This document shows positions 23,107-58,230 of a stretch of 64,000 bases of DNA, piece after piece. The notes beneath the pieces are model-generated. The model was not told the DNA's origin. It searched no databases and worked only from the letters and a program-made list of their open reading frames with translations. The position numbers and the translations under genes are program-made. The stretch covers positions 38,750,001 to 38,814,000 of the forward strand of contig NC_086378.1 of assembly GCF_036588685.1 (NCBI RefSeq), given 5' to 3'. Each line of letters starts with the position of its first letter. Position 1 is the stretch's first letter. Source of the stretch: Mytilus trossulus (taxonomy: Eukaryota).

Positions 23107-26100
23107 ATGAACTCCAATGCAAGAATTATTTGCATTAACTCAGAAAATGTCAATGGTTAGATCCCGCTAAGTATTATATGAAGCAAAGTATTTAATTACA
23201 TTAAACACAGGCTAACCTAACATCGCCTGACAATTAATATCCACATGTAAAAAATATAAATCAATGACAAATCGCCCCACTGTCAAATCGCCCCACTTTT
23301 TCACAAACTCTCCCCTCTCTGGTTTATCAACTCGCCCCACTTATAAAAAGGTTAAATCCTTTTGGAAATAGGTTTGTTAAATTGCCCCAATTATGAAAAG
23401 GGTTAAAATCCCACTAAAATAAGGTCTGCCATTACTTCACACTCATGACAAATAGATAAACAAAGATTAATTTAGTAATGCACACTCACCCCACTTAAAC
23501 ATGTATATAAATTTCTCATGTTTGTTTGTTTTCAAAGAAACCATAACTTAAACTTAGCAATCAATTTTTCAACAACAATAAAACCTGCTTAGACTTTTTT
23601 ACTAGCAAAAACCACACCCACACTTATTGTAAAGAATGAATGGGCATTCTCTTTCATATTTACTTGAAAGTAACATTTGCCTTTCAATGATTGCTCGTTA
23701 GTTTTGAATTATTCTTAATTCAAAGACAAAAGTAACCAATCCAGCAAGTGCTATATGATATTTAATTGCTGTTAATTGAAATTCTTCATATTCATAATTA
23801 TAATTTTAGATTTAGTGAAACATCATTTATTTCAATAACAATAAATTTTCGTTTTTGGAAAGATTAGAACTCGTTCTAAATCTTTACTTAGGCACCGGCC
23901 TCCCTAACAACATGAAAGGTTAGCTACTGTTACTAAATGTATTCACACTGAAATATAATTCCCTATGGTTCTCATGTATGCACATAAAAAGTAAAATCAC
24001 AAAAATACTGAACTCAGAGGAAAATCAATTTGGAAAGTCAAGAATCACATGACAAAATCAAAAAACAAAACGCATCAAAAACAAATACACCTATAAACTG
24101 AAAAAAAATGGGTAAATTATTGGAGCAGTTCATTCAAGAATGTATGTCATTAAGGTGTGTTGATGTGCAGGCTTTTTTTTTGAAAATATTATGATAAGGG
24201 AATGGATATTGATACAATACTAGTATGATTGACAACTGTCATTATCACCAAACAATCAGAGACAAGGTGGACATTTAATTACAATGCCCCACTTCCTAAA
24301 CTTTGAATTGACCACATTAGCTATCAATCTTAGTCTTACATGATTATACAGACCATTCAATATACATCTAATCCTTAGTACACAAATATTTGACCTCATA
24401 ATTGAATACACAAATGTGTATATTAGATGTTTGATATATATAAGGACATGAAGGGTGATAGATTTATTTATTGCCAATCACTTTTGATCTACATTACATA
24501 AGGTGATTCTGTAAATTATATCTGAAAGATAAATGATTAATGGATTAACTAGATCTTTAAAAATATTGAAATATGAATATAAATATGAATATACATATGG
24601 TATTCAAGTAAGGCCTCAAATTTACTTGATAAATTTCCAATTATCATCTGTAATTTATCAACAATTTAGATTAGTTCCCATTTTTTTTTCATCTGGAATT
24701 GGCTTGAAACAAATTTTAAATTTTAAAACTTTTAATATAACAAACATTGTTTATTAATTTATTTCCCATCAATTATTATGTTTATTTTAGTCTTGAATTT
24801 TTATTAGAAGTGAATATATATTTTTGCAATCAAGAACGAATCCACATTTCAATAAAAGATTTTTTTTAAATTTGTTTACATTGAAAAAGTACATTTTCAA
24901 TGCCCTGTGTTGAAAAATACTTAAAAAATTGATCAAAAGGCACTCTATAACTATTAATCTTCAATGTCATATAACCTCTGTTTCAAGTTACAAAATGCCC
25001 TAAAACACATTTTTAGATTAATTTTGTTGACACTTAGGTCGTAGGTTTTAGCTGTTGGTCTAGATTTTATGTCTTACAATGATAGTTGGTAACATTTTGT
25101 TACTAGAAGAATTTTTGATTTCATTTGCAACTTTTTTGGGTTTTTTGAAAGATGTTCGGAACAGGCAACATAGTTTCGATAAGATATAAACTGCAGTTTA
25201 AATGAAATTGTGCAAATTAAGAGACCCATATTATTAATTTGAGCTCATTTTATCTTCACACTGGAAGAGCATGTTTCCTTCTAAAGACCTGCTGTTAATG
25301 CAATTTTCAGCAATTGTGCTTTATTTATGTTCATTTTCCCCCACAATGCCTTAATATGAAATAATTCAAACTACTCTTCTAATCATTCCATGAGTGATAT
25401 CCATCATTTTGATTTGTATTCTATGAGATTAGTTTTCATTTAAGTGGGCAGACATGAAAATTGTATATTCATCTAGTCTAAGATATTACCATTTTCATCA
25501 AGTGGGGCGAGTTGGCAGGAGTATAAATATTAACAGGATTTAACCCTTTTTCACAAGTGGGGTGATTTAAAAAAAAAGTAGGGTGAGTATTCAGTTGGTA
25601 AACAAGTTGGGGCAATTTCTTTAAAAGTAGGTCGAGTTGGTGGAAAAGTGGGGCGACTTGCCAGTGGGGCAATTTGTCCTGCTAAGCTTCGATAAAATCT
25701 CCTGAATACTTTAAATAAATCAACTTAGAACCTCTTCTTTTTAGCTCAAGTGAGCTTTTCTCACCACTTGGCGTCCGTCGTCGTAAACAATTTACATTTT
25801 GAACTTCTTCTAGAGAACCACTGAATGGAATGGAACCAAACATGGCATGAATTTCCTTATGAGGTGGTGACCAAGTGTTGTTACTTTGTAGCCGATCGAA
25901 AATCCAAGATGGCCGCCAGCAAGCGACTTAGTTTAACATAGGACCCTATGGGAAATGCATACAAATGACTTCTTTTAGAGAACCACAGAATGGAATGAAA
26001 CTAAACATGGCATGAATGTTCTTTATGGGGTGCTGACCAAGTGTTGTTACTTTGTAGCCGATCCATCATCCAAGATGGCCGCCAGCGGGGGACTTAGTTT

Positions 26101-29100
26101 AACATAGGACCCTATGGGAAATGCATACAAATGACTTCTTTTAGAGAACCACAGAATGGAATGAAACTAAACATGGCATGAATGTTCTTTATGGGGTGCT
26201 GACCAAGTGTTGTTACTTTGTAGCCGATCCATCATCCAAGATGGCCGCCAGTGGGCGACTTAGTTTAACATAGGACCCTATAGGAAATGCATACAAATGA
26301 CTTTTTTAAGAGAACCACTGAATGGAATGAAACCAAACATGACATGAATGTTCCTTATGAGGTGCTGACCAAGTGTTGTTACTTTGTAGCCGATCCATAA
26401 TCCAAGATGGCCGCCAGCGTGGGACTTAGTTTAACATAGGACCCTATGGGAAATACATACAAATGACTTCTTTTAGAGAACCACTGAATGGAATGAAACC
26501 AAACATGGCATGAACGTTCCTTATGAGGTGCTGACGAAGTGTTGTTACTTTGTAGCCGATCCATCATCCAAGATGGCCGCCAGCGGGCGACTTAGTTTAA
26601 CATAGGACCCTATAGGAAATGCATACAAATGACTTCTTTTAGAGAACCACTGAATGGAATGAAACTAAACATGGCATGAATGTTCCTTATGGGGTGCTGA
26701 CCAAGTGTTGTTACTTTCTAGCCGATCCATCATCCAAGATGGCCGCCAGCAGGCGACTTAGTTTAACATAGGACCCTATGGGAAATGTATACAAATGACT
26801 TCTTTAAGAGAACCACTGAATGGAATGAAACCAAACATGGCATGAATGTTCCTTATGAGGTGCTGACCAAGTGTTGTTACTTTGTAGCGGATTCATTATC
26901 CAAATGGCCGCCAGCGGGGGACTTAGTTTAACATAGGACCCTATGGGAAATGCATATAAATGACTTCTTTTAAAGAACCACTGAATGGAATGAAACCAAA
27001 CATGGCATGAATTTTCCTTATGAAGTGCTGATCAAGTGTTGTTACTTTGTAGCCAATCCATCATCCAAGATGGCTGCCAGGGGGCGACTTAGTTTAACAT
27101 AGGACCCTATAGGAAATGCATACAAATGACTTCTTTTAGAGAACCACTGAATGGAATGAAACTAAACATGGCATGAATGTTCCTTATGGGGTGCTAACCA
27201 AGTGTTGTTACTTTCTAGCCGATCCATCATCCAAGATGGCCCCCGGCAGGCGACTTAGTTTAACATAGGACCCTATGGGAAATGTATACAAATGACTTCT
27301 TTAAGAGAACCACTGAATGGAATGAAACCAAACATGGCATGAATGTTCCTTATGAGGTGCTGACCAAGTGTTGTTACTTTGTAGCCAATCCATCATCCAA
27401 GATGGCTGCCAGGGGGCGACTTAGTTTAACATAGGACCCTATAGGAAATGCATACAAATGACTTCTTTTAGAGAACCACTGAATGGAATGAAACTAAACA
27501 TGGCATGAATGTTCCTTATGGGGTGCTGACCAAGTGTTGTTACTTTCTAGCCGATCCATCATCCAAGATGGCCCCCGGCAGGCGACTTAGTTTAACATAG
27601 GACCCTATGGGAAATGTATACAAATGACTTCTTTAAGAGAACCACTGAATGGAATGAAACCAAACATGGCATGAATGTTCCTTATGAGGTGCTGACCAAG
27701 TGTTGTTACTTTGTAGCCGATTCATTATCCAAAATGGCCGCCAGCGGGGGACTTAGTTTAACATAGGACCCTATGGGAAATGCATATAAATGACTTCTTT
27801 TAAAGAACCACTGAATGGAATGAAACCAAACATGGCATGAATTTTCCTTATGAGGTGCTGATCAAGTGTTGTTACTTTGTAGCCAATCCATCATCCAAGA
27901 TGGCTGCCAGCGGGGAAATTAGTTTAACATAGAACCCTATGGGAAATATATACAAATGTCTTCTTTTAGAGAACCACAGAATGGAATGAAACCAAACATG
28001 GCATGAATGTTCCTTATGAGGTGCTGACCAAGTGTTGTTACTTTGTAGCCGATTCATCATCCAAGATGGCTGCCAGCAGGGGACTTAGTTTAACATAGGA
28101 CCCTATGGGAAATGCATACAATTGACTTCTTTTAGAGAACCACTGAATGGAATGAAACCAAACATGGCATCAATGTTTCTTATGAGGTGCTGACCAAGTG
28201 TTGTTACTTTGTAGACGATCCATTATCCAAGATGGCCTCCAGCGGGGGACTTAGTTTAACATAGTACCTTATGGGAAATGCACACAAAGGATTTCTTTAA
28301 GAGAACCACTTAATGGAATGAAACCAAACATGGCATGAATGATCCTTATGAAGTGCTGATCAAGTGTTGTTACTTTGTAGCTGATCCATCATCCAAGTTG
28401 GCTTACAGCAGGGAACTCAGTTTAACATAGGACCCTACAGGAAATATAAACAAATGACTTCTTTTAGAGAACCACTGAATGGAATGGAACCAAACATGGC
28501 ATGAATGTTCCTTATGGGATGCTGACCAAGTGTTGTTACTTTGTAGCCGATCCATCATCCAAGATGGCCACCAGTTGGGGACTTTTGAATGAAATCAAAC
28601 ATAGCCTGAATGTGTCCTTCCTTATGAGGTTGTGTTGTTACTTTAAGCCAGATTTTTTATTTTTAATATGATTTCAAAAACCCAAGTAGAATCAGGTGAG
28701 CGATACAGGTTCTTGAGAGCCTCTAGTTTTGTGTTGCTGTCAAATTATGACAATATTGATAATGAGCTTTTTCCCAGTACAGATTCAGTATTAATTCAGC
28801 CCATTATCTTTGATAACAACCTGTCTAATAAGAAAGTTTCTGCAAAGGTAACATTTCCTTCTGCAAAAATGAACTGATCAGGAAATTATGAACTATAATT
28901 TGCATTAAAGGCACCACAATTCAGTTACCTTGTTTTGTAACCCCCATTGACAAAAAAATGATTGACATTTATAATGGTTACATTGGTTACATCAGACAAA
29001 CAAATCATAAATCATCATATTCAGAAATTCTCAAATCCTGGTACATTTGTAACCTCCATTGGCTCAGAGAAGAGGCTGAGCCTTTTATGACTTGTGTTTT

Positions 29101-32100
29101 GTATCCATTTAGATCTCTCTTGTAATGCTAATCATCAAGAGGGCTGAGGAAATCCCTAGTTCTATGGGGCAATCATTCTACAGAAATAACTGGTCCTGAT
29201 TTCAGTGATTTCTTTAGAGGGTTTAAATTTTGGCCCCTATCCTTTCAGTTAAATCCTCATCTTTTAAAACAAATTCTAAGGAAAGTGCTGTATCCTAACC
29301 GGCACCAATAAGCAAAAATTTAAAAATATTTTTACGACATTTGACAATGAGGGTCGGTTGAAAACAAAACTTTACAACAAAAGAGATGATTTCAGCTTTC
29401 CAATTTTGAACTTTCCATTTCTAAGTAGCAACATTCCAGCAGCACCTGCATACGGGGTATATATCTCCAAATTGATACAATATTCCCGTGCTTGCATTTC
29501 CTATCATGATTTTCTTGATAGAGGGTTGCTGCTCACAAGGAAGCTCTTAAACCTAGAGTTCAAATGTTGAAGTTGAAATCATCCCTTCGTAAATTTTACG
29601 GACGCCATCAGGAGTTTGTTGACCGTTATGGAATAACCATTTCACAAATGATATCGAATATGTTCTTTACGTCGTAACTATAATCCCCTTCCCTTTCATG
29701 AATGTGACCTACCAAATTAGACTATTTACCGAATTTGTTATCACATAAGCAACACGAGGGGTGCCACATGTGGAGCAGGATCTGCTTACCCTTTTGGAGC
29801 ACCTGAGATCACCCCTAGTTTTTGATGGGGTTTGTGTTGTTAATTATTAAGTTTTCTATGTTGTGTCATGTGTACTATTGTTTGTCTGTCTGTCCCTTTG
29901 GTTTCTTTTGTCCCTCTTTTGCAATTTGTGTACATTAAAAACTTTTCAGTTTTAAAAACTTTAATTAATCATCAATCCAACAAATAATTTTGTTTATCTG
30001 TAGACAACCATGTTTATTAATTAATAATATTCCATAATTTTCGACAGGTGAGAATAGTCAAGTTGATGTTCTGGTACATAGTACAGATGTGTTCACTTGT
30101 GGTATTTGTGAGCATAATGAAGAAAACCTCATAGATTTTTTAAAACACAAGATACAACGTAAGTAATAAGTTTTAATATTGTTAAATGCTATTTTGAGCT
30201 TGACCTTAAAAGAGGCATTACATGTAGCTATAATGAGATATATGTAAAATGAGATCTTTTTTTTGTTCATTCAATAATGAAAGTCATGTGAAAGTTAAAT
30301 AGTGAATTTATAATAATAAACCAGCTTTTAGCAGCCAGTTTGGTTCAATTTTATCAAACATTGCTGATGAACTTTTCACTTGCAAGTGAATATTTAAATC
30401 TCTTTAATCTGTATGCCTATGACCTAGAAGTCCTTCAATTAAACCCTTAAGCTGGAGATGGATTATATGTATAATATTTATATAATCCATCTCCAGATTA
30501 AGGGTTTAATTGAAGGACTTATATATATATATATAAAAGATGTGGTATGAGTGCCAATGAGACAACCCAAAAATGACTCATGAAAAACCATTCAAACAGG
30601 AAAACCAAGTCTAAAGTATATGAAAAACAAAAAACAAGAAACATTAATAAACCACATCAACAAACGACAACCACTTAACATCAGGTTCTTTACGTAGGAC
30701 AGGTGCAAACAAACCCAGTGGGTTTAAACCTACCAACCTTCACCCTTACCTGGAACAATAGTGTAACATCACAACATAGAAAAACACACTATAAAATATC
30801 AATTGAACTCAATACATATGAAAACAAAAAGTTAATATATATATACACTGAACAGATGAATTTGATCTATGATACATGTATTCAGCTATTAAAAGGAAAA
30901 GAATGTTAACATTGAAAGTGAAACAAGGATGTTTTTTTATGTATTATTGTCATTTTATTTATTTTCTTTTGTTACATCTTTTGACATTGGACTCAGACTT
31001 CTCTTGAACTGAATTTTAATGTGCATATTGTTATTCTTTTACTTTTCTACATTGGCTAGAGGTATAGGGGGAGGGTTGAGATCTTATAAACATGTTTAAC
31101 CCCGCCACATTTTTGCGCCTGTCCCAAGTCAGGAGTCTCTGGCCTTTGTTAGTCTTGTATGATTTTAAATTTTAGTTTCTTGTGTATAATTTGGAGTTTA
31201 GTATGACGTCCATTATCACTGTACTATTATGCATATTTTAGGGGCCAGCTGAAGGACAACTACGGGTGCGGGAATTCTCGCTACATTGAAGACCCATTGG
31301 TTGCCTTCGGCTGTTGTTTGCTCTATGGTCGGGTGGTTGTCGCTTTGACATATTCACCATTTCCTTTCTCAATTTTATGAACCATTTCGTTGACTGATTC
31401 AATCCACAAAACAATCAATCTTTATATATAGGTTAAAACATTGTTAAACATACTTTTAAACTTACAATATGAAATCAAATAGACCTAGAAAAATTTATTT
31501 GCATGTGACTGCTATCTTAATGTTTATATTTATCATGTTTATGTTTATATTGGGTTATATGACCTTCTGCAGGCCTCACAGGTCAAATATATTTGATTGA
31601 CAATTTGCATCATGTACATGATTGTATGACAAAGGGACTTTTTTTCTTTTGTTTCAGATCAAGGACCAGGAAACTGCTATGTTTGTCAGCTATGTAAGAT
31701 TTCATATACTAAAGACTCCTCGCTTACTCAGCATTATAAAGTGAAACATAAAGTGTCATTGGTTCCTAGGAAAAAAAGGAATAATAATTTTCATGAAAAA
31801 GAAGATATCCAAGACATAACAAACATTATAGAGGAAAAAGGAAATGATTATGATCTTCAAATTGTAAATATGGAAAACCTTGATGTTGTCAATTTATTAA
31901 ACAGTGACGGTTCTGACAACAGTAAATGTGATCCTGATTATGAAAAAGACAGCCAAACAGATGGGCCTCAAACTGATACAGCTGATTGTGATATAATTAA
32001 TTATTGTGAAGAAATTCCTGCTTCAGTAACTGTTAACCCAGCCATTGAAGATCATTTGCCAATGGATCACAGTCACGGAACAACAGAAATTGGACATTTA

Positions 32101-33519
32101 GATCTAAAAGCTAATAATGACCTGTCATTATCTTATACAAGTACAGTTGCTATCAAAGATAATCAGGAAGTTGTCTCGCCAAATTCAGCACATGGGGAAA
32201 ACAGTGTTGTCACCTGCAATATTGAAATAATAAGCTTGGATGAACCTAGTAATGACCTTTTTATTGATGATGACGAATCGTCAGAGAGAAATTTGAAATA
32301 TGTAAATGATGATATAACAGATGAAAATGATTTCTTTTTTTGTGTGAAAACAAATTTAAATGCAGGAAAAAGTATTATTTATGAAAGACAAAATTTGTGC
32401 TGTATATATTGTAATTACCAAGATATGGTATTGGCAAACTTGTATCAACATATGTCTGATCAGCATGTAGATCACATGAATACTAAGGAAGAACTCAAAC
32501 TTGAAAACACAAATGACAATATAAAGCTGATGAAATTTTCTGAATATAAAAACATTTGCTTAAAATATCACATGGGATCTGGCAGAAAGAACAGAAATAC
32601 CGAAATGCAAGACCAAGCAGGAGAATTTCCATGTGGGAAATGTGATAAAATATTCACTAGATTGCGTTATTTGAAAAAACATAATACACTCCATAAACCT
32701 GAAAAACCTTTTCTGTGTGATTTTTGTGGAAAATCATTTAAGACTCAAACCTACCTTACTATACATCATCGCTCACATTCCAAGAAGTCGTACCAATGTG
32801 AACAATGTGATTTTTCATCATCAAATACTGCCTTAATACACATACATAGGCAACATCATAACAATGGGTGTGTTTTATGTGATATCTGTGGTAATGCATA
32901 CTCTGATAAATCAACTTTAACCAAACACAAACGTGTTCATGATCCTAATCGACCATATCAGTGCAATTACCCAGGATGCACTTGGCGGTTTTTAACAGAA
33001 GTTATGTGCAGGGCACATCAAAGGAATCATGACACAGAAGGAAAATTTAAATGTTCCCATTGTGGTTATGTCTTTCGACACAAACATCATGTCAAAAGGC
33101 ATGAAGCTCAAGTGCATGGTATTAAAAATCAACCTATTAAGATTGATGATAAAACCGATTGTGGATCAGAACCATCAAGTATGAATAACATACAGAGTAT
33201 TAATGAAGACAAAAATACAAATGAATTGCAGGAAAAAGAGACATCTACAGTTAACGTTATAGTAGAATCAACAGAAGAAAGCACCTGTTTACAGGAGTCT
33301 GTGTCTGGTGGTCAGTTAGTAATTACAACAGACACTGAAGGGAATGCCTTGAATTATCAACTCACGGAAATTTCCAATATAGCTTTAATGGACTCAGGAG
33401 GAGGGAGAACAATTATAATTCCTCAAATTGACTATGGAAATGTTGTTTTGCAGAGGGTGGAAAATGCAGTTGGAGATACACCAATGATTAAAGTTACAGA
33501 ATTAAAGGAGAATATATGA
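23107..33519 (+). CDS. C2H2 zinc-finger protein, about 673 aa, about 9 fingers. Exons 23107-23155, 30048-30158, 31658-33519
   Basis: Two phase-1 introns join MNSNARIICINSENVNG-ENSQVDVLVHSTDVFTCGICEH...HKIQH-QGPGNCYVCQLC...HYKVKH to the 592-aa ORF. That ORF has one isolated finger and six tandem fingers (CGKC, CDFC, CEQC, CDIC, CNYPGC, CSHC) with a KPEKPF linker. Exon 1 is the least certain assignment. Confidence 0.85.
23262..25681. mobile_element. About 2.4-kb non-autonomous TIR element with subterminal GCCCCAC repeats; truncated copy at 9166-11027
   Basis: Left end GACAAATCGCCCCACTGTCAAATCGCCCCACTTTT versus right-end reverse complement GACAAATTGCCCCACTGGCAAGTCGCCCCACTTTT. Confidence 0.75.
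25738..28728 (+). mobile_element. HINE/Helentron-type element carrying about 17 copies of a 166-bp satellite
   Basis: 5' tttagctcaagtgagcttttct...gtccgtcgtcgt; 3' tcaggtgagcgatacaggttcttgagagcctctagttt (subTIR plus hairpin); inserted in a T-run. Confidence 0.8.
25805..28640 (+). repeat. Tandem array, 166-bp unit, about 17 copies
   Basis: The marker gaaccac recurs every 165-166 bp from about 25815 to about 28470; the unit contains ttagtttaacataggaccctatgggaaat and caagatggccgcc. Confidence 0.95.
29338..29900 (+). mobile_element. Penelope-like retroelement 3' fragment (RT C-terminal region), degraded
   Basis: LKTKLYNKRDDFSFPILNFPFLSSNIPAAPAYGVYISKLIQYSRAC resembles the Penelope-like RT C-terminus; frameshifted after 29570. 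Confidence 0.7.
30935..31378 (+). repeat. Abundant SINE-like interspersed repeat. Related copies at about 4640-5056, 6950-7358, 11485-11770, 33545-33700 and 39840-40500
   Basis: Shared core acatgtttaaccccgcc...cctgtcccaagtcaggagcc; common 3' ends ttgtctc...cattctcaatttt or ggca.tcataccacatctt. Confidence 0.7.
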
Positions 33520-38961: not shown

Positions 38962-39170
38962 CACACATCTACATCTGCGACTCATCACTCAAGTATAAAT
39001 TTTACTTTGAAGTCTTCCAACATGTACAGTATTTATTATTCTCTGCTTTCCTTGGACAAATGCTATGTGGGTGACTAACACATACTGTTTAACAGTAAAT
39101 AACTCAATACCACAAACCAGAAATGAATTTATTTATAAATGGTCTCAAATTATATTAGTGAGTTCAATAG

Positions 39171-42100
39171 CTATGAATCATCTTCAGCCTCTAAATTAAT
39201 CTCATTTCCAAATTTAGCATAAAGCTCAACTTTTAGATCTTGGAGTATCTTTTTGTGAAATTCAGCCTGGTTTTCTATGGTTTTGATCTCCTCTTCTAAA
39301 GTAGCTTTGGCTTTTTCTAACATTTCTCCTACTCCATCTGTTGTAAAACTTACAAATACTTCACCAATCTGATATGTAAGATATGTTAAGGATAAATGCA
39401 TTATTATCTTGATGATAGACAGGTAATTTATGATCTCTTGTGTTACAGGTTTACCTTGGTATTTAAACATTTTACCAGATTATGCTTGATGTTGCTTAGG
39501 TTTCAGTGGCAAATGTCTCCTGCATATTCAGGACAAGAACTAATTAATAATAAATGCAATACTGAATAGGCCCCCTTAAACTGACCTAACCACAAACTAA
39601 CACAATGCTCAAGCCAAAGCAAACAAAGCAAAATATTTCAGCCTAGTTGAGACAAAATCTTTGAGCTATTTTTTTTTTAGAGATCTACATCTGTATACCA
39701 TCTAATATCTAACTGTAGGAATAGATTAAGTTATTACAACCTCATGAAAAACAAAACTTGTTACAACAAGCTTTTAAACTTCAATGTTGCTTTCTATAAA
39801 ATTTGTAATGTTTTACTACTGTTTAATAAGAGGGTGAAGTTTGCACCTGTCCTAAATTAGAAACCTGTTGATCAGTGATTGTCTTATGTTAATGTGTTTC
39901 TCGTTTTTCGTTTTTGTATATACAGATTAAACCACAAACCAATTCAAGTGCTATTTTATAGTGTGTCTTTCTATGTTGTGATTATACACTATTGTTTTTG
40001 GCAAGGTTGGTACCTATTAAAACGTTTAAATCTGCTGCATTTGTTTACACCTGTCCTAAGTCAGATGTCTGATGTTAATAGTTGTTGTTTGTTGATGTTG
40101 TTCATAAGTGTTTCTCGTTTATCAATTAGATTAGACCTTTGGTTTTCCCCTTTGAACTAGTCATTTTTTGGGGCCTTTATGGCTTGCTGTTTGGTGTGAG
40201 CTAAGGCTCCCTGTTGAAGACCATACTTTGAATTATAATGGTTTTTCTTTTACAAATTGTGAATTGTCTTATTGGCATTCATATCACAACTTCTTATATC
40301 TACATGTATAAACCTTGGTTTTTCTGTTTGAATCATTTCACATTTATAGTAATTTTTATGGTCCTTTATATCTAGCTGTTCAGTGTGAGCCAATACAAGG
40401 CTCTTTGTCGTCAAAGGCTGTACTATGACCTTTAATGGTTTACTTTTTAGAAACTGTGACTTTGATGGAGAGTCTCATTGGCACTCATACCAAATCTTCT
40501 TTTAATATTTAATTAGCAGTTATCTCTCCTGAACTATAGACTCCTGTTAACAATTTTAAAATGTAAATTGTATATGTAAAGGATATGGAACAGGTTCTGT
40601 ATCATCTTCTCTCATCAAAAGGTCATTTTCTGCATCCTCTACATTTTGGAGCTCTTTCTACAAAAACATGTCGAATATTATACTTTTTTCATTAACATTA
40701 ATATAACTACATGTAACTAAATTAAACACAAAAATTTCAATATAGGGTTTATGGAATCACACTCTTTTTCCACTCTAGATAAATAAAGTTTGAAACTTTA
40801 AAATATGAGGTTTACCATTAAACTATCCAGAGAAGATAAATAATATAATAAACAGTATAACGTGGTAGAATCTGTTTCTCAAATGATTTACTACATTGAT
40901 TCATTATTCCTGGTATACCTGTTTTTGTGCAATTTGTGGGTACAGGTTAACAACAAATCTAATTGTTCAATGAAGTACAAATTTTCTAAAGACTTGTTTA
41001 AGAATTCATTCTTTCATGCAATGCTTTATCTTTATACTGAGCATAGGCAAGGTGTTAAATGTTGAAAAATAAAATGCCTACCCTGGCATGTTTAAATTCA
41101 CATAGAGCATGTGATTGGTAGAATTCTTTTTATTCTTACAGGAAATATTTAGAATTTTGTACTTCGCAGCAGACTACATTGTATATAATATGCATTCAAA
41201 AGGAAATTATTCTGATTTGATGATGCCAAAACATTTTAGGAAATCAACTTTTCATGAAAAAAATTAACTTACTTTTAAAATAATTTAAAATTATAATAGC
41301 GGAAAACAAATCTCCATTTTGATTTCAGGCATTGTTCAAAACAGAGTTGACATCAAGTTTGCAAGTTTAGTTTTAAAAACATGCATGACATGTACATTAA
41401 TTAAAAAAAAACTCAATTACATATTACGAAATATTACATGCAAAATTGTAATTAAATAATTGAAAATTTTCAAGTCAACATTAATAACTTTTGGTTGTTG
41501 TAATCATTGAGTCAATACAATATTGACATATAATACTATCATAACTGTGCTTTTACCTTTTTATTTTTCACCTCTTCTTTGTAATCTTGAAGTCTTGCAT
41601 TATTTCTGGCAAATTTATTGATCTTTTGTTGGTCTTCAAAAGTTACTTTGATGTCTTTATCCTTCAAAAAATAGAAGAATCTCAATCATGCTACATTGTA
41701 TATTTAGAAATACTAAACAAGACATCAATTTGTCATTTTGTCTCTTTAATTCACAGGATGATGTGCCTGATGTGGGCTACATTATATATATGAATTTGTA
41801 AATTAGGTGCATAATCCAAAAACACACAAAACCCTACTACAAGTATAACATCAGGGCTAAACCTTGGATTTTGGAAAGGGGCAGTGATTTCATGAGAGCA
41901 AGGAAGTGTAAAATTCCATTACCATTTCAATCATGTTGAACCATAATCCTTGTCCAACCATCCTAGGTTTAATTACTTGTGGAATCATGTGTCTAGTTAA
42001 GTGACATAGGTTTAAAGATTATCCTATCTCCAATTCAAATTTACACATTCATTATATTACTGTGATTTAATTTGTACACGGTATGCAGTTTTTCAGTAAG

Positions 42101-42970
42101 AGTAAAGGCTGGTTTGCTTTGGTTCAGAATATATAGTGTACATGTACATGTATCTGGTTAGGGTGACCTGTCATACTCTGTGTTATCTTAGTCTGCACCA
42201 AAATATTTTCAGACTACTAGTCTGAAGACCAACAATTCATCATTTTTCTTCCTGTCTAACCCAAAGTTTTTTAAATACAAACTAGTCAGAATAAAATTTT
42301 CCACTGGCTACAATTACGTTGAAATGGAACATTAATATAAAAGTTATTGTTACGTTGGACACAAATTGCCTGAATAATTTGGTGGGTTAGAAACCAATTA
42401 ATTACATGAATTATGAATGTAACGATAACATTTGTGTCTATGGTTACGTTGTGTTTAAATATGATTTGTACAATGTACATAGTTTGTTCATGTTGTTCGT
42501 TATATTTATTAAACTCTTCACCTACTATCATGACTATATAATAGTTTAACATTATATTTAAGACAAGTTAAAACTACTCGCATGTTTCCCCCAAAAAAAT
42601 TGGGATAACAAATATTTATTTCAAGAATAAATTTCACCAGAAGCATGAGGGGCAGACACAATTTAAAAGTTGCTATAAAACTACAAAAGGGATATTTTAT
42701 TTTGCAGAAAGGAACTGTTTAGTCTACAAAACTGACGTGCAAATTGCAGCATCGTTCGTTTTTAAATTGGAATTAATGCAAATGAACTTATTCACTTATA
42801 TTTTATTTGTACAAAATCATTTGAAGCGACATATACCTGGATGCTGAAAACAAACAAATCAGACAGGACAATGCATCAATTTAAACTACCATTGTGACCA
42901 CAGACAGAAAAAATAGTTTGTATATATGTCCTTATTGATAAAATACCTTGGGTTTGTTTGGGCTTGCCAT
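39171..42970 (-). CDS. PFDN4: Prefoldin subunit 4, complete, 134 aa. Exons 42970-42947, 41661-41557, 40657-40587, 39375-39171
   Basis: Spliced protein MASPNKPK-DKDIKVTFEDQQKINKFARNNARLQDYKEEVKNKK-KELQNVEDAENDLLMREDDTEPVP-YQIGEVFVSF...LKVELYAKFGNEINLEAEDDS; 405 nt in frame with PFDN4 signature motifs. Confidence 0.95.
39376..40586 (-). other. U12-type (minor spliceosome) AT-AC intron, PFDN4 intron 3
   Basis: 5'ss ATATCCTTT (40586-40578), branch point TCCTTAAC (39392-39385), 3' end AC (39377-39376); removal restores P-YQIG in frame. Confidence 0.93.
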
Positions 42971-43593: not shown

Positions 43594-45155
43594 AGATAAG
43601 ATAAGATAAGATAAATTTTATTTTCCAAATTAGGTCCCCAGGGGGGCATATACACATAACATATATGATTGATACAACATACAGTATTTTACATAACATT
43701 GTAAAATAAACTATTGAAATAGTCATACAGGTATTATTTGTTAAATAAAAAAGTATTTGAGAGTTGCTACTCCAGAGATGTGGCAAACCCCATTTTTTTT
43801 TTTTTTTCTCACTTGATTTTATAATATTTTGCTGAAAATGTATAAATATAAAATATAAAATAAATGATTGTTTAGCTGCAACAGACACCAAGGGACGATG
43901 CTCTAGGATTGTGATCTTAAAAGCTCTAACAATCCTCCTCGTATCTGATGCAGAAAAACAAACACAAATGAAAAAAGTTTATGTATATTCACAGCAAATA
44001 ACATATACTGCAGTAAACAGGTATTGAGAATAGTGTAGGTTTCCCTACTGCAACAGACACCAAGGGGCGGTACTCAAGGAGCTGTGGTATTTACACAGTC
44101 CTCCTCGTGTCTGAAGCAGACAAGAAGGCCACATAATTAACAATTTTTCGAAATAAATTTACATGCAGCAGTGAGAATAGACTTATCTTCTGTGTTCATA
44201 AGCCATATCAGTTTATCTCTTGCGTTAAGAGTTAAAAAGTTGGGGCAACTTTTAGTTATCTCTTGAAATAGATGATTGCGGTCATCATTAAATTTAACAC
44301 ATTGGAATAAAAAATGATATTCATCCTCCACATCTCCGGAGTTACAACGAGTACAAGTTCTGTCATTTAGGAGAGTACCCTGATACCTTCCAGACTCAAT
44401 TCTTAAGTGGTGTGATGAAATTCTGAGCTTTGTTAAGCTTCGTCTCTGTTCAAAATTCCCAATAATGGAAAGATATTTTTCTCTTCCAAAAACTGATTTA
44501 AATGTAACATAAGTTCTAAGTTTACCATCTGAATGCTTTACCAATTCAGTGTTCCACAAGTCTATAAAATATGATTTTAATATTTTTTTCATATTAGCTT
44601 TGAAGCTATTAATTTTTGGTAATGGTGAAGATAGATGATTGATGTCTGGGATCATTTCAAGAATTGACTTCATAGAGCCATACCAAGATGGTTTTTTTGA
44701 GTGAGAAAGATTCTGTGATGTTACATAAGCATCTTTAAGAAGAGAAAATAGGGAATCAAGATTTTCCAAGCGATACCAGTAATTTAACATGGATTTAATC
44801 ACATCATAATATAGTGGGAATCGTCCTAGCTCGGATAAAATTCCAAAATTCATGGATTTTTTATGAACACCTAAAACCAGTTTACAAAATTTTATATGTA
44901 GTCGCTCACATTTTAAACTGGAATAGATTTTTTCAAATGGTAAAGTTCCATTTCTGAATCTTGCTGAGAATGGATTAAAAGTTCCCCATATTTCAGACCC
45001 ATATAGGAGTATTGGTTTTATGGTATGATCAAATACATGTAAGCTGGTACTTATGCTTGGATTAAGTGATAATAAATTCTTGTACAATTTATAATAAGCC
45101 TTCAAGGACTTTTTATACAGTTCATTTTGAGCATATGAAAATGACCCTGATGCAC
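43594..45155 (-). mobile_element. 5'-truncated non-LTR retrotransposon (CR1/L2 group) with an uninterrupted ORF2 C-terminus (ORF 44137-45246) and a (TATCT)n tail
   Basis: FDHTIKPILLYGSEIWG, ELGRFPL, KLRTY..FK, LTKLRISSHHLRIESGRY and a C-terminal CxxC...EDEYHFLFQC motif; tail AATAAAATTTATCTTATCTTATCT at about 43594-43622. Confidence 0.9.
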
Positions 45156-45559
45156 TAATATATATATATGACAGACACCAACCAATGGCAATCAATGAAT
45201 TTCTTGTTGGGGGAAATGAACATACTGAATGTGGTGGGTTGAGCAAGTGTGAGAGACCTCATCCCTTTTTTAACGGCTTGCTCAACCCACCATATCCAGC
45301 ATTAGAATTGGAGACTTACCGAGTATATACAATTTAGGAGATTGTGATTAAAAAATGACAGAAAACTCTTATTTTAAAGTTTTCATTAAACATGTTAAAA
45401 ACATTTTAAAAATTGCACTAAATAATTCAGCTCGACATGAAAGTAAACGATCTCTCCCTTTTTGGAGAATAACACAGTAAAAATTGAGTAGAGACGAAAC
45501 AGAGTATTCAGTCGAATATTTTCGATGACACACATATTAAATGAAGATTGGTTGCTTAA

Positions 45560-47110: not shown

Positions 47111-48409
47111 ACACATTTACAACATAAAACAAGTAGGTTCATTGGGTTAACTTATGTCACAAGTTGGTTTCCCCCCCCCCCCCCCCCCCCCCCCCCAGAA
47201 TTGATGTATTCGCTACAATTAGCGAAACCCTTGAGGTTAACTTTAATTCGGAAACTGTAGATTTTCCCGGACAACACATGCACAGCATCATGAAGAAACT
47301 GATGTCATACAGACAAAATATGGGTAAGATTATAAGAAAATAGGCGAATAATATATATTTCGACATAAATAGCATACATGTATTACAAAACTTGCAGAGT
47401 CTTTCTTAGACATGTACTTCAACGCCTGTGAATAAAATAGAGTACATACCACCGTTCTGCAGTGTTCGACCCCTTGTTTCTTTATTGTCAGTCTACGATC
47501 TTAAGATAAGTGATTGTTATGATTTGATGGAAAAAAATCCGGGGGACACAAGGAACGGTAAAACATAACTTGCAATTATATTTCAGATATTAAATTTGCT
47601 AGCACATTCACTTGAGAGTGACGTAGATTATTTTCTTTTTCCACCAGAATTTCCTGAAATAAACAAGTTGTTTAATCTACTGACTGGAATGATGTTGGGT
47701 TTGGTTGAAGCACATGAGACAGCTAGCGAGAGTTATAAGAAGTCATTTACTGAAAGAATCCAGAAAAAAAAACGTCAAACTGGTTTCATCATCTGACAGC
47801 ATTCTTCCAATTCCAACGTAAATTGTTTGATTTTAAAACAGTGTGTACATATTTTTTTGCTGTATTTTTAATGCCAACAAGCGATTTCTTAACACGAATA
47901 GCATCGATTTGTAAAATGCTCTTTCCTTGAAGCCAAAACAAACTCGATAACTTTTTATCAACGATCGGCCTGCTGGTAAAAGACTAGCGTATATTCAAAC
48001 TATACAGTGACATAATATTGGTAGCTTTTATGTATTCAAAACATAAAGTGACGAAGGCTTGCGTGTCTCCGAAATATAAAGTAATGGTGTCAATTTACTT
48101 ATGTTGTGAATACACAAAAAGCGGACCTACAGATCTTTACGCCGGTTTATAGTGGAATTTTATACATTTTTCAGATTTTATCAAATTACAACCAGTGAAT
48201 ACTATGCCAAGGTCGATGAAATGTACAAACTTCTGAGAACACATAAATATATTCACAAAGAACTTCAGCGACAACAAGAGGTAATATTTTACAGCAAAAG
48301 ACACGCGTGTGATAACATTTTTCTCAAATGGTTCAATTTTATTATTTGTTCAAGATGTAAATTTCGATATTTTTAGTTTCTAGATAAAATTTTACACCGG
48401 TGACATACC

Positions 48410-49215
48410 TACTGGGCGCCGAATGGGACTCTAGTGGTTTTGTACAAAATTCAATTCTGTCATAACAAAATCATTTTTGTCTTACAAAACTATGTGATAC
48501 AGACTTGTTTTATGACAACTTCAATTTTGTGATGACAAAATTCATTTTTGTGCGACAAAATTTCTTTTTGTGACAACAAAATTGACTTTTGTTAGACAAA
48601 ATTATCAAAATTCAATTTTGTCTCAATTTTGTGAGACAAAATTCATTTTTGTGACGACAAAATTCATTTTTGTGACGACAAAATTCATTTTTGTGAGGAC
48701 AAAATTGACTTTTGAAAAACAAAATTGACTTTTGTTAGACAAAATTGACTTTTGTGAGACAAATTTCAATTTTGTTACTTTTGTTAGACAAACAATTTTG
48801 TCTCAATTTTGTGAGACAGACTTGAATTTTGTCAATTTTGTCTCACAAAAGTCAATTTTGTCTCACAAAAGTCAATTTTGTCTCACAAAAGTCAATTTTG
48901 TCTCACAAAAGTCAATTTTGTATGCAAATTAGTTCACAGTATCCCAACAACTAATTTGCATACAAAATCGACTTTTGTCGCCCAATTTTCAAATTAGGTA
49001 ACAAAAGTCAAGTCTTTGTAACAAAAATGAATTTTGTCATGACGAAAGTGACTTTTGTCCACCGAAAGATAATTTTGTATGACAAAATTTTAAATTTGTA
49101 GTATGTTACAAATTTTGTTAAACTGAACTCATTTTTGTTGAACAAAAGTCACTTTTGTCCGTACAAAATTGAATTTCGAGTACAAAACCACAAGAGTCCC
49201 ATTCGGCACCCCGTA
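48410..49215. mobile_element. MITE copy 1 (TAC...GTA termini, 5-bp TSD ATACC) with an internal ~20-bp minisatellite
   Basis: TIR TACTGGGCGCCGAATGGGACTCTAGTGGTTTTGTAC; ATACC at 48405-48409 and 49216-49220. Confidence 0.9.
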
Positions 49216-49942
49216 ATACCGCATTGGTTTTTAAAGGTCAAAACGAAGATAATATTATTCTCCAAACAGTTCAACTCCAATACTATCAAAAACAAGAAAC
49301 AAAGTACCGTAGCTAGTTCACAGCCAATAGTCTCACAGACTAAATTTTCATTCAGCCTTAAACGAAAAGACGCCATGCATTAACAGTCAAAGAACACCAT
49401 GACACCATTGGGAAAGCTATAATTATAATGATATTCTGAGTTCAAACTAAACAGTAATGTCTTGTCTTTTGTTCAAAATGTACATACATACATATGGAAC
49501 TATCACTTTTAAAGCGCTCGGACTTTTCCACACATTTTTTGTAAGTCTTGGTAACAATTTGATAATAACACGGATTTTCATGTAGGAATTTCATACTGTA
49601 AATGGATTTAAAGCCAAGCTGCCAGATATACAGTTTGTTAGTTACAAATTAGCTATGCAGATGATGAAGGAACAACCATCTGAAGCGTCAAACGAACAAC
49701 GCAATAACAATAGTAAGTCAGTTTTTTACGTTTGTTTTGATAGGATAACGCCGAAAATTTCAATGCATCAGTTTTATGAAAGTGTATAGGCAAACGCAGA
49801 GACTTTTTGAATGTTTTAGCGATTTATTGTAGATGCAATACAATTGTTATTTATGTGTATTTTAGTAAACGGAACTGTTATTTTAGTGATTGATTTTTTT
49901 TAATTTTCTTATAAACATAATGATTCTTGAATTAGCCGTTAG

Positions 49943-50956
49943 TACGGGGCGCCGAATGGGACTCTTGTGGTTTTGTACAAAATTCAATTCTGTCATAACA
50001 AAATCATTTTTGTCTTACAAAACTATGTGATACAGATTTGTTTTATGAGAACTTCAATTTTGTGATGACAAAATTCATTTTTGTAGACAAATTTCGATTT
50101 TGTGATGACAAAATTAATTTTTGTAGACAAAAATCATTATTGTCATGACAAAGTCAAGAAGGTATGCAAATATAAACTTATTTGCATACAAAATTGACTT
50201 TTGTTACCTGACATGGAAATTAAAACACAAAAGTCAATTGTGTGAGACAAATTGAGTTTTGTGAGACAAAATTGACTTTTGTGAGACAAAATTGACTTTT
50301 GTGAGACAAAATTGACTTTTGTGATCAATTTTGTAACACAAAATTCAATTTTGTCTCACAAAAGTCAATGTTGTTACTTTTGTCAGACAAAATTGACAAA
50401 ATTGATTTTTGTCTCAATTTTGTAACACAAAATTCAATTTTGTCTCACAAAAGTCAATTTTGTTACTTTTGTCAGACAAAATTGACAAAATTGATTTTTG
50501 TCTCAATTTTGTGAGACAAAATTCAATTTTGTCAATTTTGTCTCACACATGTCAATTTTGTCTTACAAAAGTCAATTTTGTCTTACAAAAGTCAATTTCG
50601 TCTCACAAAAGTCAATTTTGTCTCACAATAGCCAATTTTGTGTAACAAAAGTCGATTTTGTATGCAAATTAGTTCACAGAATCCAAACTTAAGTAATTTG
50701 CATACAAAATTGACTTTTGTCGCCCAAATTTCAAATTAGGTAACAAAAGTCAAGTCTGTGTAACAAAAATTAATTTTGTCATGACAAAAGTGACTTTTGT
50801 CCACTGAAGATAATTTTGTATGACAAAATTTTAAATTTGTAGTATGTTACAAATTTTGTTAAACTGAACTCATTTTTGTTGAACAAAAGTCACTTTTGTC
50901 CGTACAAAATTGAATTTCGAGTACAAAACCACAAGAGTCCCATTCGGAGCCCCGTA
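49943..50956. mobile_element. MITE copy 2 (same family, 5-bp TSD GTTAG)
   Basis: TIR TACGGGGCGCCGAATGGGACTCTTGTGGTTTTGTAC; GTTAG at 49938-49942 and 50957-50961. Confidence 0.9.
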
Positions 50957-53024
50957 GTTAGACAAAAAGCCTGTAGTAATCATCAATTCTTCACAAACGT
51001 ACTTGGTCAGCTTCTAATTGTGATGACAACCAGTATTCGATGAGTTCTATAATCGGTTAAGTTCTCTCACTTATCACGAGCAAATAGGTCAAACACATGC
51101 AATATCACTAAACTATTCTAGAGAATATTATTTTTTTCATAAGCCCAATTTGCCATTTACTACTATGTCTGTGTAACAATAGGCCATTTGAATGATTTAA
51201 TAATATGTATTAACGGTCCCAATAATTCATTTGCAGACGCCAGATGTCAAGACAACCAGTTTGGTTTTTTAATCAACACTTATGTAAAGACAAAAGACTT
51301 GTCAGAGAAAACAAACGAGTGCTTTGTCAAAGTTAAGGAAGGTAAGAAAAAATGTTCCAAAGGTACACCAGGCATATATGATGACAACATGATATATCAA
51401 TTTTACATTTGAAAGGGCAAGGAATAATCATAAAAATTGAGAATGGAAACGTATGTCAAAGAGATTACAACAAAATCAAAGAGTAGATAATATTTTATTT
51501 GTATTTATATTTGACAAGTTTTATACAATATTGCACTAATTTGTTTCTCATAACTATCTTTTAAATTTATTAAATTAAAGAATGCAGAAGGAAAAGTGTC
51601 AACTCGATTTGTTTTAATTTTCAGGGATGGTCGTAAAGTTGAAGGTCGCTACAGACAATTCAGAAGTTGCCTTTGGGTGGTATAAGACAAACCCATGGAA
51701 TCAAAAGAAATGGGGATTCTTTCGCAAATCTACAGAGAAAATGATGTAAACATAAACATTATGAAGATATTGACCTTATTGGTTTATTTATAAATGATTA
51801 CACATTCAAGTTTTCTTCGATCATGTTTCAGTAATGATGTGGGAGTGAATCGTGTGTCGGTCTGTGTGAATGAGTGAGAGATCCTGTGTTCCAGTTAGTC
51901 TCGATGCACCAGAGTTATCGTTCTTACAGCAAACAATAACGACTCTACATATATATGCATATGGAGCGTCTGGATTATCGAGACTATGTTCCAGTGAGAG
52001 AGGGAGTGATTGTGAGAGCATGTTTGTCTATGCAAGTTGGAGCGAACATGTCTGTGTAAGTGGATCTTGCGAAAGAGTGTGTGTATTTGTGTGTGTGTGA
52101 CATGAGGGAAACGAGAGAGAATGGGTAGATGTATTGTTGTTTGTGTTGTATGACAGGTTTTAATATATTGTGAGTTTATATTAGATGATAATTAAATATT
52201 TATTTTGTGCATTGATCTTATTTATTATTTCTGAACTTGATTTACAGTTCTCCTACACATTGATTTATTTTTCTTTTCGAATAAGCTTTGTTAAAACTTG
52301 AATACTTGTTTCAAGTCAGACTTGTATATCGACTGGTAAATAAATATGTTATAAAATTAAAATTGAAAATGGAAATGATCAATGTGGCAAAGCGACAAAA
52401 ACCCTACCAAAGAGCCTAGTATAGTCCAATGCCACCAATGGGTCTTTAACACAGGAAAAAAAACAGCACCCGGAAGCGAGGCTTCAGCTAGCCCCTAAAC
52501 AAAAATGTGTACTAGTTCCATAAAAATGGACGTTTCCATTAAACTCCGAAACATATAAATGAATTTAAAAAAAACCCAACCCAACATACAATACTTACAA
52601 GGCTATAGTCTTCTGACTTGGACATATGTCAGCATAGGGCATCATAAACAAAATAATGTAAGCATTTGTGGCATAGAGCAGAAGTTTCCATTAAAAATTA
52701 CCAGAACAAGCTTAGAATCGAACCTATGATGCATGGCACTTTTCTATAAGTATTGATTTATGAGAATAAAATCACATGTTCTTCATTCAAAAAGGATTTG
52801 CAGTCAAACGCTTTTGTTCGTTCATGGCATACTGGTTGGGTGTAACATTATATAAGCCTTAATTTTGCATAGCGAGAGCAACATATATATTTAAAAGAAA
52901 AATATAATTTACAAGGTTATTTCTTAATACATCGAATTATCTAAGTGCTAGAACCAATCTGTACTAATTTGTCACTTGCTGGAAGGGTAATCTCACATTT
53001 GGCTTTATAAATATTTTGATATGA

Positions 53025-56900: not shown

Positions 56901-58230
56901 AGAATTTTCCTTGGGAGTTCGGTATATTTGTTATTTTATTTTTCATTAGTGTCAAGCGTTAAGAAACCTTCGGTGATGCCATAGGTTTATATTTTCATTG
57001 CGATAACAACGTAATTAATGAATAAATTAAGAAACAGACAAACGTTTACCTGATCTGTCCCAGCAAAAGAATGGTCATTCAATGCTGTTATGGCTTTGAT
57101 ACCTAAGGCAACTGTCGCGTGGTTTGAAGTAAGAATTGAATAATAAAACAACAATTGAGGTAATTATTTTATTCGGTCAGATGTCAAACGCACCATTTCA
57201 AGTACTTGTCGACTGAATGGACCTGATGTTTACCTCTTCTTTTCAGTTCAGTTGCATTCCCATTCTCTCGTGAAAACAAATGATAAATGTTCCCTCAAAG
57301 TTTCACACTAATATTAATTGATATCTATTTACAATGGAACTGTCTGTTTTGATTTGAGAACGCCAATTTGAGAAACTTCTGCATACATTTTTATATTTCA
57401 TTTTTCAAGGTCAACTGTTTCCAAAATTTCAAATTCTGCCACATAATTCGTGTTTTACAGAACCCGATTAGAGCTACATTGAAGAAAAAACAGGTACTTT
57501 AACGACATAAGTATGTCGTACTTAGGACATACTTATATCCTGATAACTACACATCCTATCATGGTAACCACCAGGCTACATCTTGGTAAATTTTTCCAAG
57601 AGTAATTGCCCTTCAAAAGATTTACATAATTGTCACTTTGTCATTAAAATCGCAAGAAATACCGTTTAAAATAAGAGAGAAACTGTAATCAGCATAAGTC
57701 ATCAGCAATATAAGATTAACAAAAAGGGAACGCAAAGGAAGTTTGAGAATAATAATTTTGGTTTAAATGCTTCTAAATAATAATTGTTGACCAATTACAG
57801 CATACTTAAAATATCTTTGATCACAAGGTAAAAAACTATCGACATTCATCCTGTCCCGTAATTTAAAAAAAGAATTGTCGTCCTCTTTCAATTAAATTTC
57901 AATTTTCTTTCTTTTTTCCGATTACCGGATCTGTGCTTCAAAACCGGAAGTTTTGTTTGTTCCTCGATTTAACTCGTCTCAGTTGTAATATTAACATAAT
58001 GGGTGACAGTTAAACAATGCAGGAGGAGCAGTTTCAGAGCTCATTTTGTATGATCTGTTGTTTTGTAGTTGAAGCACAAAATTTGTAATATTTCTAAAAG
58101 ATTAGGACTTATTGTTTCACGAGGAAGGGCATTTGAAAAATTTTCTTTAAAATTTTCTTGTTTTATTTCTTATTTGTACACAAAAAAGTTTATTATTTTT
58201 CTTTATTTCAGACGCAAATGTACCGGGATA

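What the first reader, a model, noticed from the sequence alone, without database searches (positions are those of the whole stretch)
39376..40586. PFDN4 carries a textbook U12-type AT-AC intron
Seen: exon 3 ends ...CCT GTT CC and is followed by ATATCCTTT. The next exon is preceded by TCCTTAAC-atatctt-AC. Removing this 1,211-nt segment restores the conserved P-YQIG and gives a 134-aa protein. Established: ATATCCTT, TCCTTAAC and a terminal AC are the minor-spliceosome consensus, and GT-AG-only gene predictors usually mis-model such genes. Inference: from memory, human PFDN4 has no intron at this codon, so this may be an ancestral minor intron lost in vertebrates. It would put prefoldin supply under minor-spliceosome control in this lineage.
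Basis: partly seen in the sequence, partly recalled or inferred. Interest (0 to 1): 0.7.

Follow-up and report, generated by a model that had tools for sequence, protein, structure and literature searches.

The report
Ancient minor intron in mussel prefoldin-4
The last intron of the mussel prefoldin-4 gene has rare AT-AC ends, is cut out in transcript assemblies, and is likely removed by the minor spliceosome; the same intron sits at the same codon in corals and other invertebrates but not in the fish and insect genes examined, so it is likely an old, ordinary member of a known intron class.

Summary
Observation confirmed. Intron 3 of a Mytilus PFDN4 gene (40586-39376, minus strand, 1,211 nt) starts ATATCCTTT, has TCCTTAAC just before a terminal AC, and is skipped in transcript contigs of 7 of 8 runs laid. 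The spliced protein equals NCBI's 134-aa model. U11, U12, U4atac and U6atac genes are in the genome.

The intron is old. Metagenome contigs show it at the same codon and phase as AT-AC in stony corals and a clam-like gene, and as U12 GT-AG in other animal clades. Three non-animal genes have a major-like GT-AG segment there. One teleost-type locus and five insect-type loci lack it, and PFDN4 is absent from the human and mouse minor-intron lists.

The claim of lineage-specific control fails: human and mouse PFDN5 and VBP1 already carry minor introns, and the mussel genes have them too. Loss in the human line is common (34 of 136 in one published comparison). This scan already noted the same intron in an octopus.

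Verdict: real, but a new member of a known kind. One side lead is a clade whose intron lies 7 nt downstream as a major intron.

The parts
42947..42970 (-). PFDN4 coding exon 1 (24 nt, start codon)
   Evidence: joined to exon 2 in contigs of X3 and X14 (skip 1285)
41662..42946 (-). intron 1, GT-AG, 1,285 nt, major type
41557..41661 (-). coding exon 2 (105 nt)
40658..41556 (-). intron 2, GT-AG, 899 nt, major type; position after residue 43 shared with coral, teleost, insect and fungal-type loci
40587..40657 (-). coding exon 3 (71 nt), ends after base 2 of the Pro67 codon
39376..40586 (-). intron 3: U12-type AT-AC intron, 1,211 nt, phase 2
40578..40586 (-). U12 5' splice site ATATCCTTT; complementary to the 5' end of the genome's U11 and to U6atac
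   Evidence: the pairing registers are from established knowledge and were read by eye
39385..39392 (-). U12 branch site TCCTTAAC; its two adenosines are the 12th and 11th bases from the intron end; 7 bp with the genome's U12 snRNA when one A is bulged
39376..39377 (-). 3' splice site AC; no polypyrimidine tract (7 nt between branch site and AC)
39171..39375 (-). coding exon 4 (205 nt to the stop codon); Pfam Prefoldin_2
39115..39170 (-). 3' untranslated region; the X1 contig ends at 39115 in a poly(A)-like loose end
   Evidence: tables 7 and 8 (one contig)
39369..39370 (-). cryptic AG 7 nt inside exon 4 (Gln69 codon); used by GenBank model P0025; matches the acceptor position of the 7-nt-shifted intron in L081/L098
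40590..40591 (-). cryptic GT 5 nt before the true donor; in-frame GT-AG rivals would give 130, 143 or 152 aa; not seen among the joints shown
39839..40510 (.). interspersed-repeat DNA inside the intron (approximate bounds); many divergent contigs from elsewhere pile up here

Best explanation
Intron 3 of the single mussel PFDN4 gene is an AT-AC intron with full U12 signals that transcript contigs show is cut out, likely by the minor spliceosome, and it was likely inherited from the common ancestor of corals and bilaterians and later lost in the fish and insect lines. Inferred mechanism: the U11/U12 particle pairs with ATATCCTTT and TCCTTAAC, U6atac replaces U11 at the donor, one of the two branch adenosines attacks the first A, and the exons join to complete the Pro67 codon. 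Shown here: the signals, the 1,211-nt skip, the intact protein, the four minor snRNA genes and their complementarity, and the same-site intron in other animals. Inferred: that the minor spliceosome does the cutting, the single origin, and the losses. Elsewhere the intron switched subtype to U12 GT-AG. The mussel has minor-type introns in at least 3 of its 6 prefoldin subunit genes (PFDN3/VBP1, PFDN4, PFDN5) against 2 listed for human and mouse.
For: Signals at exact positions. Skip of 1,211 nt listed in 7 of 8 runs, each from a different study; X3 and X14 contigs skip all three introns. Protein identical to P0001; one locus in the genome. U12 (5 matches), U11 (3), U6atac (2), U4atac (1) above Rfam cut-off. 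Of 80 metagenome loci (read): 6 complete AT-AC U12 introns at the same codon and phase, 1 AC acceptor only, 12 complete U12 GT-AG, 1 donor only, 24 AG acceptor only, 4 major-like GT-AG at the same site, 4 shifted by 7 nt, 20 contiguous, 2 retrocopy-like, 6 uninformative; many loci are near-duplicates. Five of the 6 AT-AC loci are stony-coral genes (last exon 91-100% identical to the best coral-type protein; L061 matches L059 at both intron ends; tree) and L036 groups with clams. L027 is a spliced-form coral contig joined at the same site. Read-through of the donor (PYP[FL]) occurs in 5 of 199 non-vertebrate-type proteins (Mizuhopecten, Sinanodonta, Pocillopora, Ornithodoros, Cordylochernes) and 0 of 199 vertebrate-type ones. 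Teleost-type L101 is contiguous here and has an intron at codon 90/91 instead.
Against: Minor-spliceosome dependence was not tested by experiment, and intronIC could not be run. RNA evidence is from contigs, 7 of 8 runs only guessed to be RNA, with no DNA control; the joints table hid 17 rows and contigs drop rare forms. Vertebrate absence rests on one genomic locus plus indirect evidence. One fish model (P0178, Coregonus, partial) has the same exon-skipping shape as the mussel mis-model; this is ambiguous, because the Gln-codon AG lies inside the vertebrate exon anyway. No echinoderm, amphioxus, lamprey or sponge gene was read, so the time of loss is open. The tree is a quick tree on 134 columns with 37 of 75 inner branches unresolved; the GT-AG clades are unplaced.
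Confidence: 0.92

Rival explanations
1. The gene is spliced at nearby GT-AG sites by the major spliceosome, giving a 130-, 143- or 152-aa protein.
For: Three in-frame GT-AG pairs exist. GenBank model P0025 uses the AG at 39370-39369.
Against: Every listed joint across the intron skips 1,211 nt (the table is complete). None of the 7 equivalent placements is GT-AG. The 130-aa form deletes Tyr68, invariant in alignments A1 and A2.
Confidence: 0.02
2. It is one of the rare AT-AC introns spliced by the major (U2) spliceosome, like those of sodium-channel genes.
For: AT-AC ends alone do not define the class (PMC3584512 section 4).
Against: U2-type AT-AC introns have G at +5 (PMC2831892 passage); this one has C. 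It has a full U12 branch site at the right distance and no pyrimidine tract, and orthologues keep the U12 signals.
Confidence: 0.02
3. The joined form is an artefact: reverse-transcriptase template switching at the 6-nt direct repeat, or a processed retrocopy.
For: A 6-nt repeat flanks the joint; no DNA run was laid.
Against: The same contigs skip the ordinary introns too. Only one locus is found in the genome. The skip restores a conserved protein. Corals with other flanking bases keep the same intron.
Confidence: 0.01
4. The introns at this codon arose more than once, or some vertebrates keep it, so 'ancestral and lost in vertebrates' is wrong.
For: Only one vertebrate genomic locus was read. 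P0178 is ambiguous. The non-animal L102 intron sits in an AG|G context where independent gain is plausible.
Against: Same codon, phase and U12 signals in corals, bivalves and several other animal clades. New U12 introns are reported as very rare (PMC3584512 and PMC2831892 passages). PFDN4 has 0 hits in 8 supplementary files listing human and mouse minor-intron genes.
Confidence: 0.07
5. An add-on rather than a rival: slow splicing of this intron would limit prefoldin supply in mussels, a control that vertebrates lack.
For: Three mussel subunit genes carry U12-type signals. Human PFDN5's minor intron responds in 8 of 9 minor-spliceosome inhibition data sets.
Against: Vertebrates share the dependence through PFDN5 and VBP1. 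The intron has been lost, switched or shifted several times. A survey of over 3,000 genomes argues for a large neutral component (PMC10639083 abstract passage).
Confidence: 0.15

Closest known systems
U12-type (minor) spliceosomal introns, AT-AC subtype (U12DB, IAOD/intronIC, MIDB)
   Same: Donor, branch site, short branch-to-end distance, no pyrimidine tract, AT-AC ends, one minor intron among major ones.
   Different: Nothing in kind. This gene is not in the human/mouse list or the responsive-intron tables searched. The online databases could not be read.
Minor introns of prefoldin genes PFDN5 and VBP1 (human and mouse; PMC6717393 supplement)
   Same: Same complex; the mussel orthologues have U12-type GT-AG introns of 336 and 1,288 nt with the same donor contexts.
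   Different: Those are GT-AG subtype, in alpha subunits, and kept in vertebrates. This one is AT-AC, in a beta subunit, and absent from the vertebrate sequences examined.
Invertebrate minor introns not shared with human (PMC10639083)
   Same: 136 minor introns are shared by Saccoglossus and Aplysia, 102 of them also by human, so 34 of 136 are not.
   Different: None; this intron is one such case, here traced to corals.
Subtype switch and minor-to-major conversion series (Burge 1998 as cited; PMC2831892; PMC3584512)
   Same: AT-AC, U12 GT-AG, major-like and absent states all occur at this one codon.
   Different: One clade has a major intron 7 nt downstream with both ends moved and no change in protein length. 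The passages read describe cryptic donor activation, not this exact two-ended slide.

Membership tests
U12-type intron | Conserved 5' splice site RTATCCTT | tested here: met
   ATATCCTTT at 40586-40578
U12-type intron | Conserved branch site TCCTTRAC | tested here: met
   TCCTTAAC at 39392-39385
U12-type intron | Short branch-to-3'-end distance (optimum 11-13 nt, PMC3584512) | tested here: met
   The two adenosines are the 12th and 11th bases from the end
U12-type intron | No distinct polypyrimidine tract | tested here: met
   Only 7 nt lie between the branch site and AC
U12-type intron | Matched AT-AC or GT-AG ends used in the mature RNA | tested here: met
   1,211-nt skip in 7 of 8 runs; AT-AC is the only matched pair among 7 equivalent placements
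U12-type intron | Host has U11, U12, U4atac and U6atac able to pair with the signals | tested here: met
   6-7 bp complementarity read by eye for U11, U12 and U6atac
U12-type intron | Classifier score (intronIC or MIDB matrices) | not testable with these tools
   Program and matrices not on hand
U12-type intron | Splicing depends on the minor spliceosome (knock-down, lariat mapping) | not testable with these tools
   Needs an experiment
U2-type AT-AC intron | G at donor position +5 | tested here: not met
   +5 is C; criterion from PMC2831892 passage
Prefoldin subunit 4 (PFDN4) | Beta-type prefoldin domain and nearest named relatives are PFDN4 | tested here: met
   Pfam Prefoldin_2 E 4.7e-24; 100% to M. 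galloprovincialis and about 55-63% to vertebrate PFDN4; single locus

The most novel reading that the evidence does not exclude
This one PFDN4 codon records every fate of a pre-animal minor intron: AT-AC in corals and bivalves, U12 GT-AG in other animals, major-type at the same site in fungi and a protist, lost in fish and insects. In one animal clade it was converted to a major intron by a lossless 7-nt slide: the old donor ATATC became the Tyr-Gln codons and the old Gln-codon AG became the acceptor. That would be a direct AT-AC-to-major route with no change to the protein.
Probability: 0.2. Interest if true: 0.5.

Novelty: new member of a known kind. Interest (0 to 1): 0.25.

Why it matters
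Modest. It is a clean, RNA-supported example of a minor intron that dates from before corals and bilaterians split and that the human line lost, which published numbers show is common. It explains recurrent wrong PFDN4 gene models in bivalves, corals and chelicerates, and the PYP[FL] read-through mark is a cheap way to spot the intron in protein databases. It shows that early animals likely had minor introns in three of six prefoldin subunits. If the 7-nt slide is real, the site would be a small test case for how minor introns become major ones.

Tried and rejected
Literature searches found no paper on this intron: 'PFDN4' + 'minor intron' 0 papers; 'prefoldin' + 'u12' 16 listed, none on topic by title and abstract start; one off-topic paper; some searches gave general papers only. 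The library lacks most subscription papers, and MIDB, IAOD and the database behind PMC10639083 could not be read; they may well list this intron, since the correct NCBI model exists. The PMC7367187 supplement held only 2,790 characters. The PMC10639083 supplement PDF was listed, not read. Plants: PMC4792155 says most PFD4-group genes have two introns, but positions are in a figure not held, so the plant state is open.

Intron retention: low-depth contigs lie in all three introns and one X2 contig crosses the acceptor unspliced, but contig depth cannot measure retention, so nothing is concluded. The careful tree did not finish; the quick tree could not place the GT-AG clades or L081/L098. L099 (51 nt) and L104/L105 (66 nt) are in frame with no stop and have no RNA support, and L104's donor is unusual, so they may not be introns; L102 (89 nt) breaks the frame and must be one. 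PFDN1-, PFDN2- and PFDN6-like hits showed no U12 signal beside the matched exons, but only 3-kb loci were read. A regular-expression count of vertebrate proteins diverging after codon 90/91 gave 39 of 199, of which 20 were false positives by eye, leaving 19. Other RTATCCT sites in the window do not follow recognisable exons. Rfam found nothing in the window. The protein atlas gave no hit for the 16-kb exon.

Full report
1. The observation. On the minus strand the window holds a four-exon gene: 42970-42947, 41661-41557, 40657-40587 and 39375-39171. Introns 1 and 2 are GT-AG (1,285 and 899 nt). Intron 3 is 40586-39376, 1,211 nt, starts ATATCCTTT and ends TCCTTAAC-ATATCTT-AC. It interrupts the Pro67 codon after its second base. 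The joined exons give 134 aa, identical to NCBI's Mytilus galloprovincialis 'prefoldin subunit 4-like' P0001, with Pfam Prefoldin_2 at E 4.7e-24. The 1.30-Gb genome has one such locus. Each motif alone occurs about as often as chance allows in 64 kb (2 against 1.27 expected; 2 against 0.65). The evidence is that both sit exactly at the ends of the skipped segment.

2. RNA. Of 20 runs listed I laid 8, one from each of the 8 studies. A joint skipping 1,211 nt is listed for X1, X2, X3, X14 and X8, X17, X18. X16 has no listed joint, but its loose ends continue into the partner exon. The contigs of X3 and X14 skip all three introns, and X1's ends in a poly(A)-like tail at 39115. A 6-nt repeat makes seven placements of the joint equivalent; one is AT-AC and none is GT-AG. 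The three in-frame GT-AG rivals do not appear among the joints shown. Limits: contigs only, 7 of 8 runs guessed to be RNA, 17 rows hidden, no DNA control.

3. Class. PMC3584512 (passages and section 4) defines U12 introns by donor and branch site, no pyrimidine tract and an 11-13 nt branch distance; all are met. Position +5 is C, not the G of major-type AT-AC introns (PMC2831892 passage). The genome encodes U12, U11, U6atac and U4atac above Rfam cut-offs. Read by eye, U12 offers 7 bp to the branch site with one A bulged, and U11 and U6atac each offer 6 bp to donor positions +4 to +9. That the minor spliceosome does the cutting is inferred, not tested.

4. Age. A scan of metagenome contigs with alignment A2 returned 80 loci, read at the homologous codon. 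Tally of all 80: 6 complete AT-AC U12 introns (L036, L038, L040, L058, L059, L061); 1 AC acceptor only (L034); 12 complete U12 GT-AG (L037, L041, L043, L045, L046, L048, L060, L066, L067, L069, L071, L103; the branch site is weak in L071 and set further back in L103); 1 donor only (L100); 24 AG acceptor only; 4 major-like GT-AG at the same site (L099, L102, L104, L105; three distinct genes); 4 shifted by 7 nt (L081, L098 complete; L083, L085 acceptor only); 20 contiguous; 2 retrocopy-like; 6 uninformative. Many loci are near-duplicates, and several contiguous ones are transcript-like or wholly intronless. L038, L040, L058 and L059 are stony-coral genes (last exon 91-100% identical to the best coral-type protein; L061 matches L059 at both intron ends), and L036 and L034 group with clams. 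So mussel and corals share an AT-AC minor intron at one codon and phase.

5. A second line comes from wrong gene models. Read through, the donor translates as PYP[FL]. That mark is in 5 of 199 non-vertebrate-type proteins fetched: Mizuhopecten, Sinanodonta, Pocillopora, the tick Ornithodoros and the pseudoscorpion Cordylochernes. It cannot tell AT-AC from GT-AG. Other models skip or garble exon 3 (P0025, P0297, P0300).

6. Losses. Teleost-type L101 runs through the site and has an intron at codon 90/91 instead; five insect-type loci (L088, L092, L093, L095, L096) also run through it. None of 199 vertebrate-type proteins has the mark, and 19 diverge after codon 90/91 (counted by eye). PFDN4 has 0 hits in the 8 supplementary files of PMC6717393 (term search) and in the supplement of PMC11347168 (term search). 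Against this: P0178 from Coregonus has the same exon-skip shape as the mussel mis-model; it may simply use the AG inside the vertebrate exon. The human gene itself was not read. Such losses are common: in PMC10639083 (section 16) 34 of 136 minor introns shared by an acorn worm and a sea slug are not shared with human.

7. The regulatory claim. Human and mouse PFDN5 and VBP1 are listed minor-intron genes, and human PFDN5's intron responds in 8 of 9 inhibition data sets. The mussel VBP1-like gene has a 1,288-nt intron with full U12 GT-AG signals, and the PFDN5-like gene a 336-nt intron with somewhat weaker ones, at the same donor contexts. Prefoldin therefore depends on minor splicing in vertebrates too. 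The mussel has at least three such subunits instead of two. Nothing here shows rate-limiting control.

8. Side lead. L081 and L098 have a major GT-AG intron after the Gln codon, 7 nt downstream, with both ends moved and the protein length unchanged. In the mussel the donor and the start of exon 4 share ATATC, and exon 4 offers an AG at +7, so a slide would need only a few changes. Independent gain after loss is not excluded, and the clade is unplaced. Conversion through nearby cryptic sites is a known idea. The same-site major-like segments in two fungal-type genes and one protist-type gene hint that the position predates animals, but two of the three are in frame and have no RNA support.

9. 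Novelty. Eight literature searches found no paper on this intron; the minor-intron databases were out of reach and may list it. An earlier, unreviewed note of this scan (e1-10346683) reports the same intron in an octopus, with the same reading; I saw it after my own coral and fish results and did not check the octopus. Papers seen: PMC6717393, PMC11347168 and PMC7367187 (supplement term searches), PMC10639083 (passages, sections 16 and 27), PMC3584512 (passages, section 4), PMC2831892 and PMC4792155 (passages). Verdict: real and well supported, a new member of a known kind, interest 0.25.

Noticed in passing
L081, L098 (L083, L085 acceptor only): An unplaced animal clade has a major GT-AG intron 7 nt downstream of the U12 site, both ends moved and protein length unchanged; possible lossless minor-to-major slide.
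   Followed up: partly
L006 (G000:C10, about 36.58 Mb) and L009/L012 (G000:C2, about 98.43 Mb): Mussel VBP1-like and PFDN5-like genes carry U12-type GT-AG introns (1,288 and 336 nt) at the same donor contexts as the human and mouse genes.
   Followed up: partly
window 15054-18070, minus strand: Exons that look like the 3' half of URI1, a prefoldin-like gene (label recalled, no family hit). A second copy at G000:C6:38.12 Mb is 84% identical over 81 aa and lies near a prefoldin-domain exon; no such exon was found in the window. Likely a partial duplicate.
   Followed up: partly
window about 8100-10900 and 22200-25000: Identical translated stretches 14,096 nt apart: a recent local duplication or an assembly repeat.
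   Followed up: no
window 31630-33516 (+) and 58069-59976 (+): Long open frames: a C2H2 zinc-finger protein and a B-box (TRIM-like) protein.
   Followed up: no
window 44140-45258 (-): A 373-aa open frame just upstream of PFDN4 that looks like the 3' end of a non-LTR retrotransposon (recalled likeness; no Pfam hit).
   Followed up: no
window about 48400-51100 and 25900-28600: Arrays of short repeats: an ACAAAATTGA-like array in two or more related elements, and a longer tandem unit near 26-28.6 kb.
   Followed up: no
L099, L102, L104/L105 and protein P0266: Non-animal PFDN4 genes with a major-like GT-AG segment or an insertion at the same codon and phase; suggests a pre-animal intron position, but L099 and L104 are in frame and unverified.
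   Followed up: partly
protein P0178 (Coregonus, partial model): A fish model joins exon 2 directly to the Ile after the Gln-codon AG, like the mussel mis-model P0025; the gene should be read to exclude a retained intron.
   Followed up: partly
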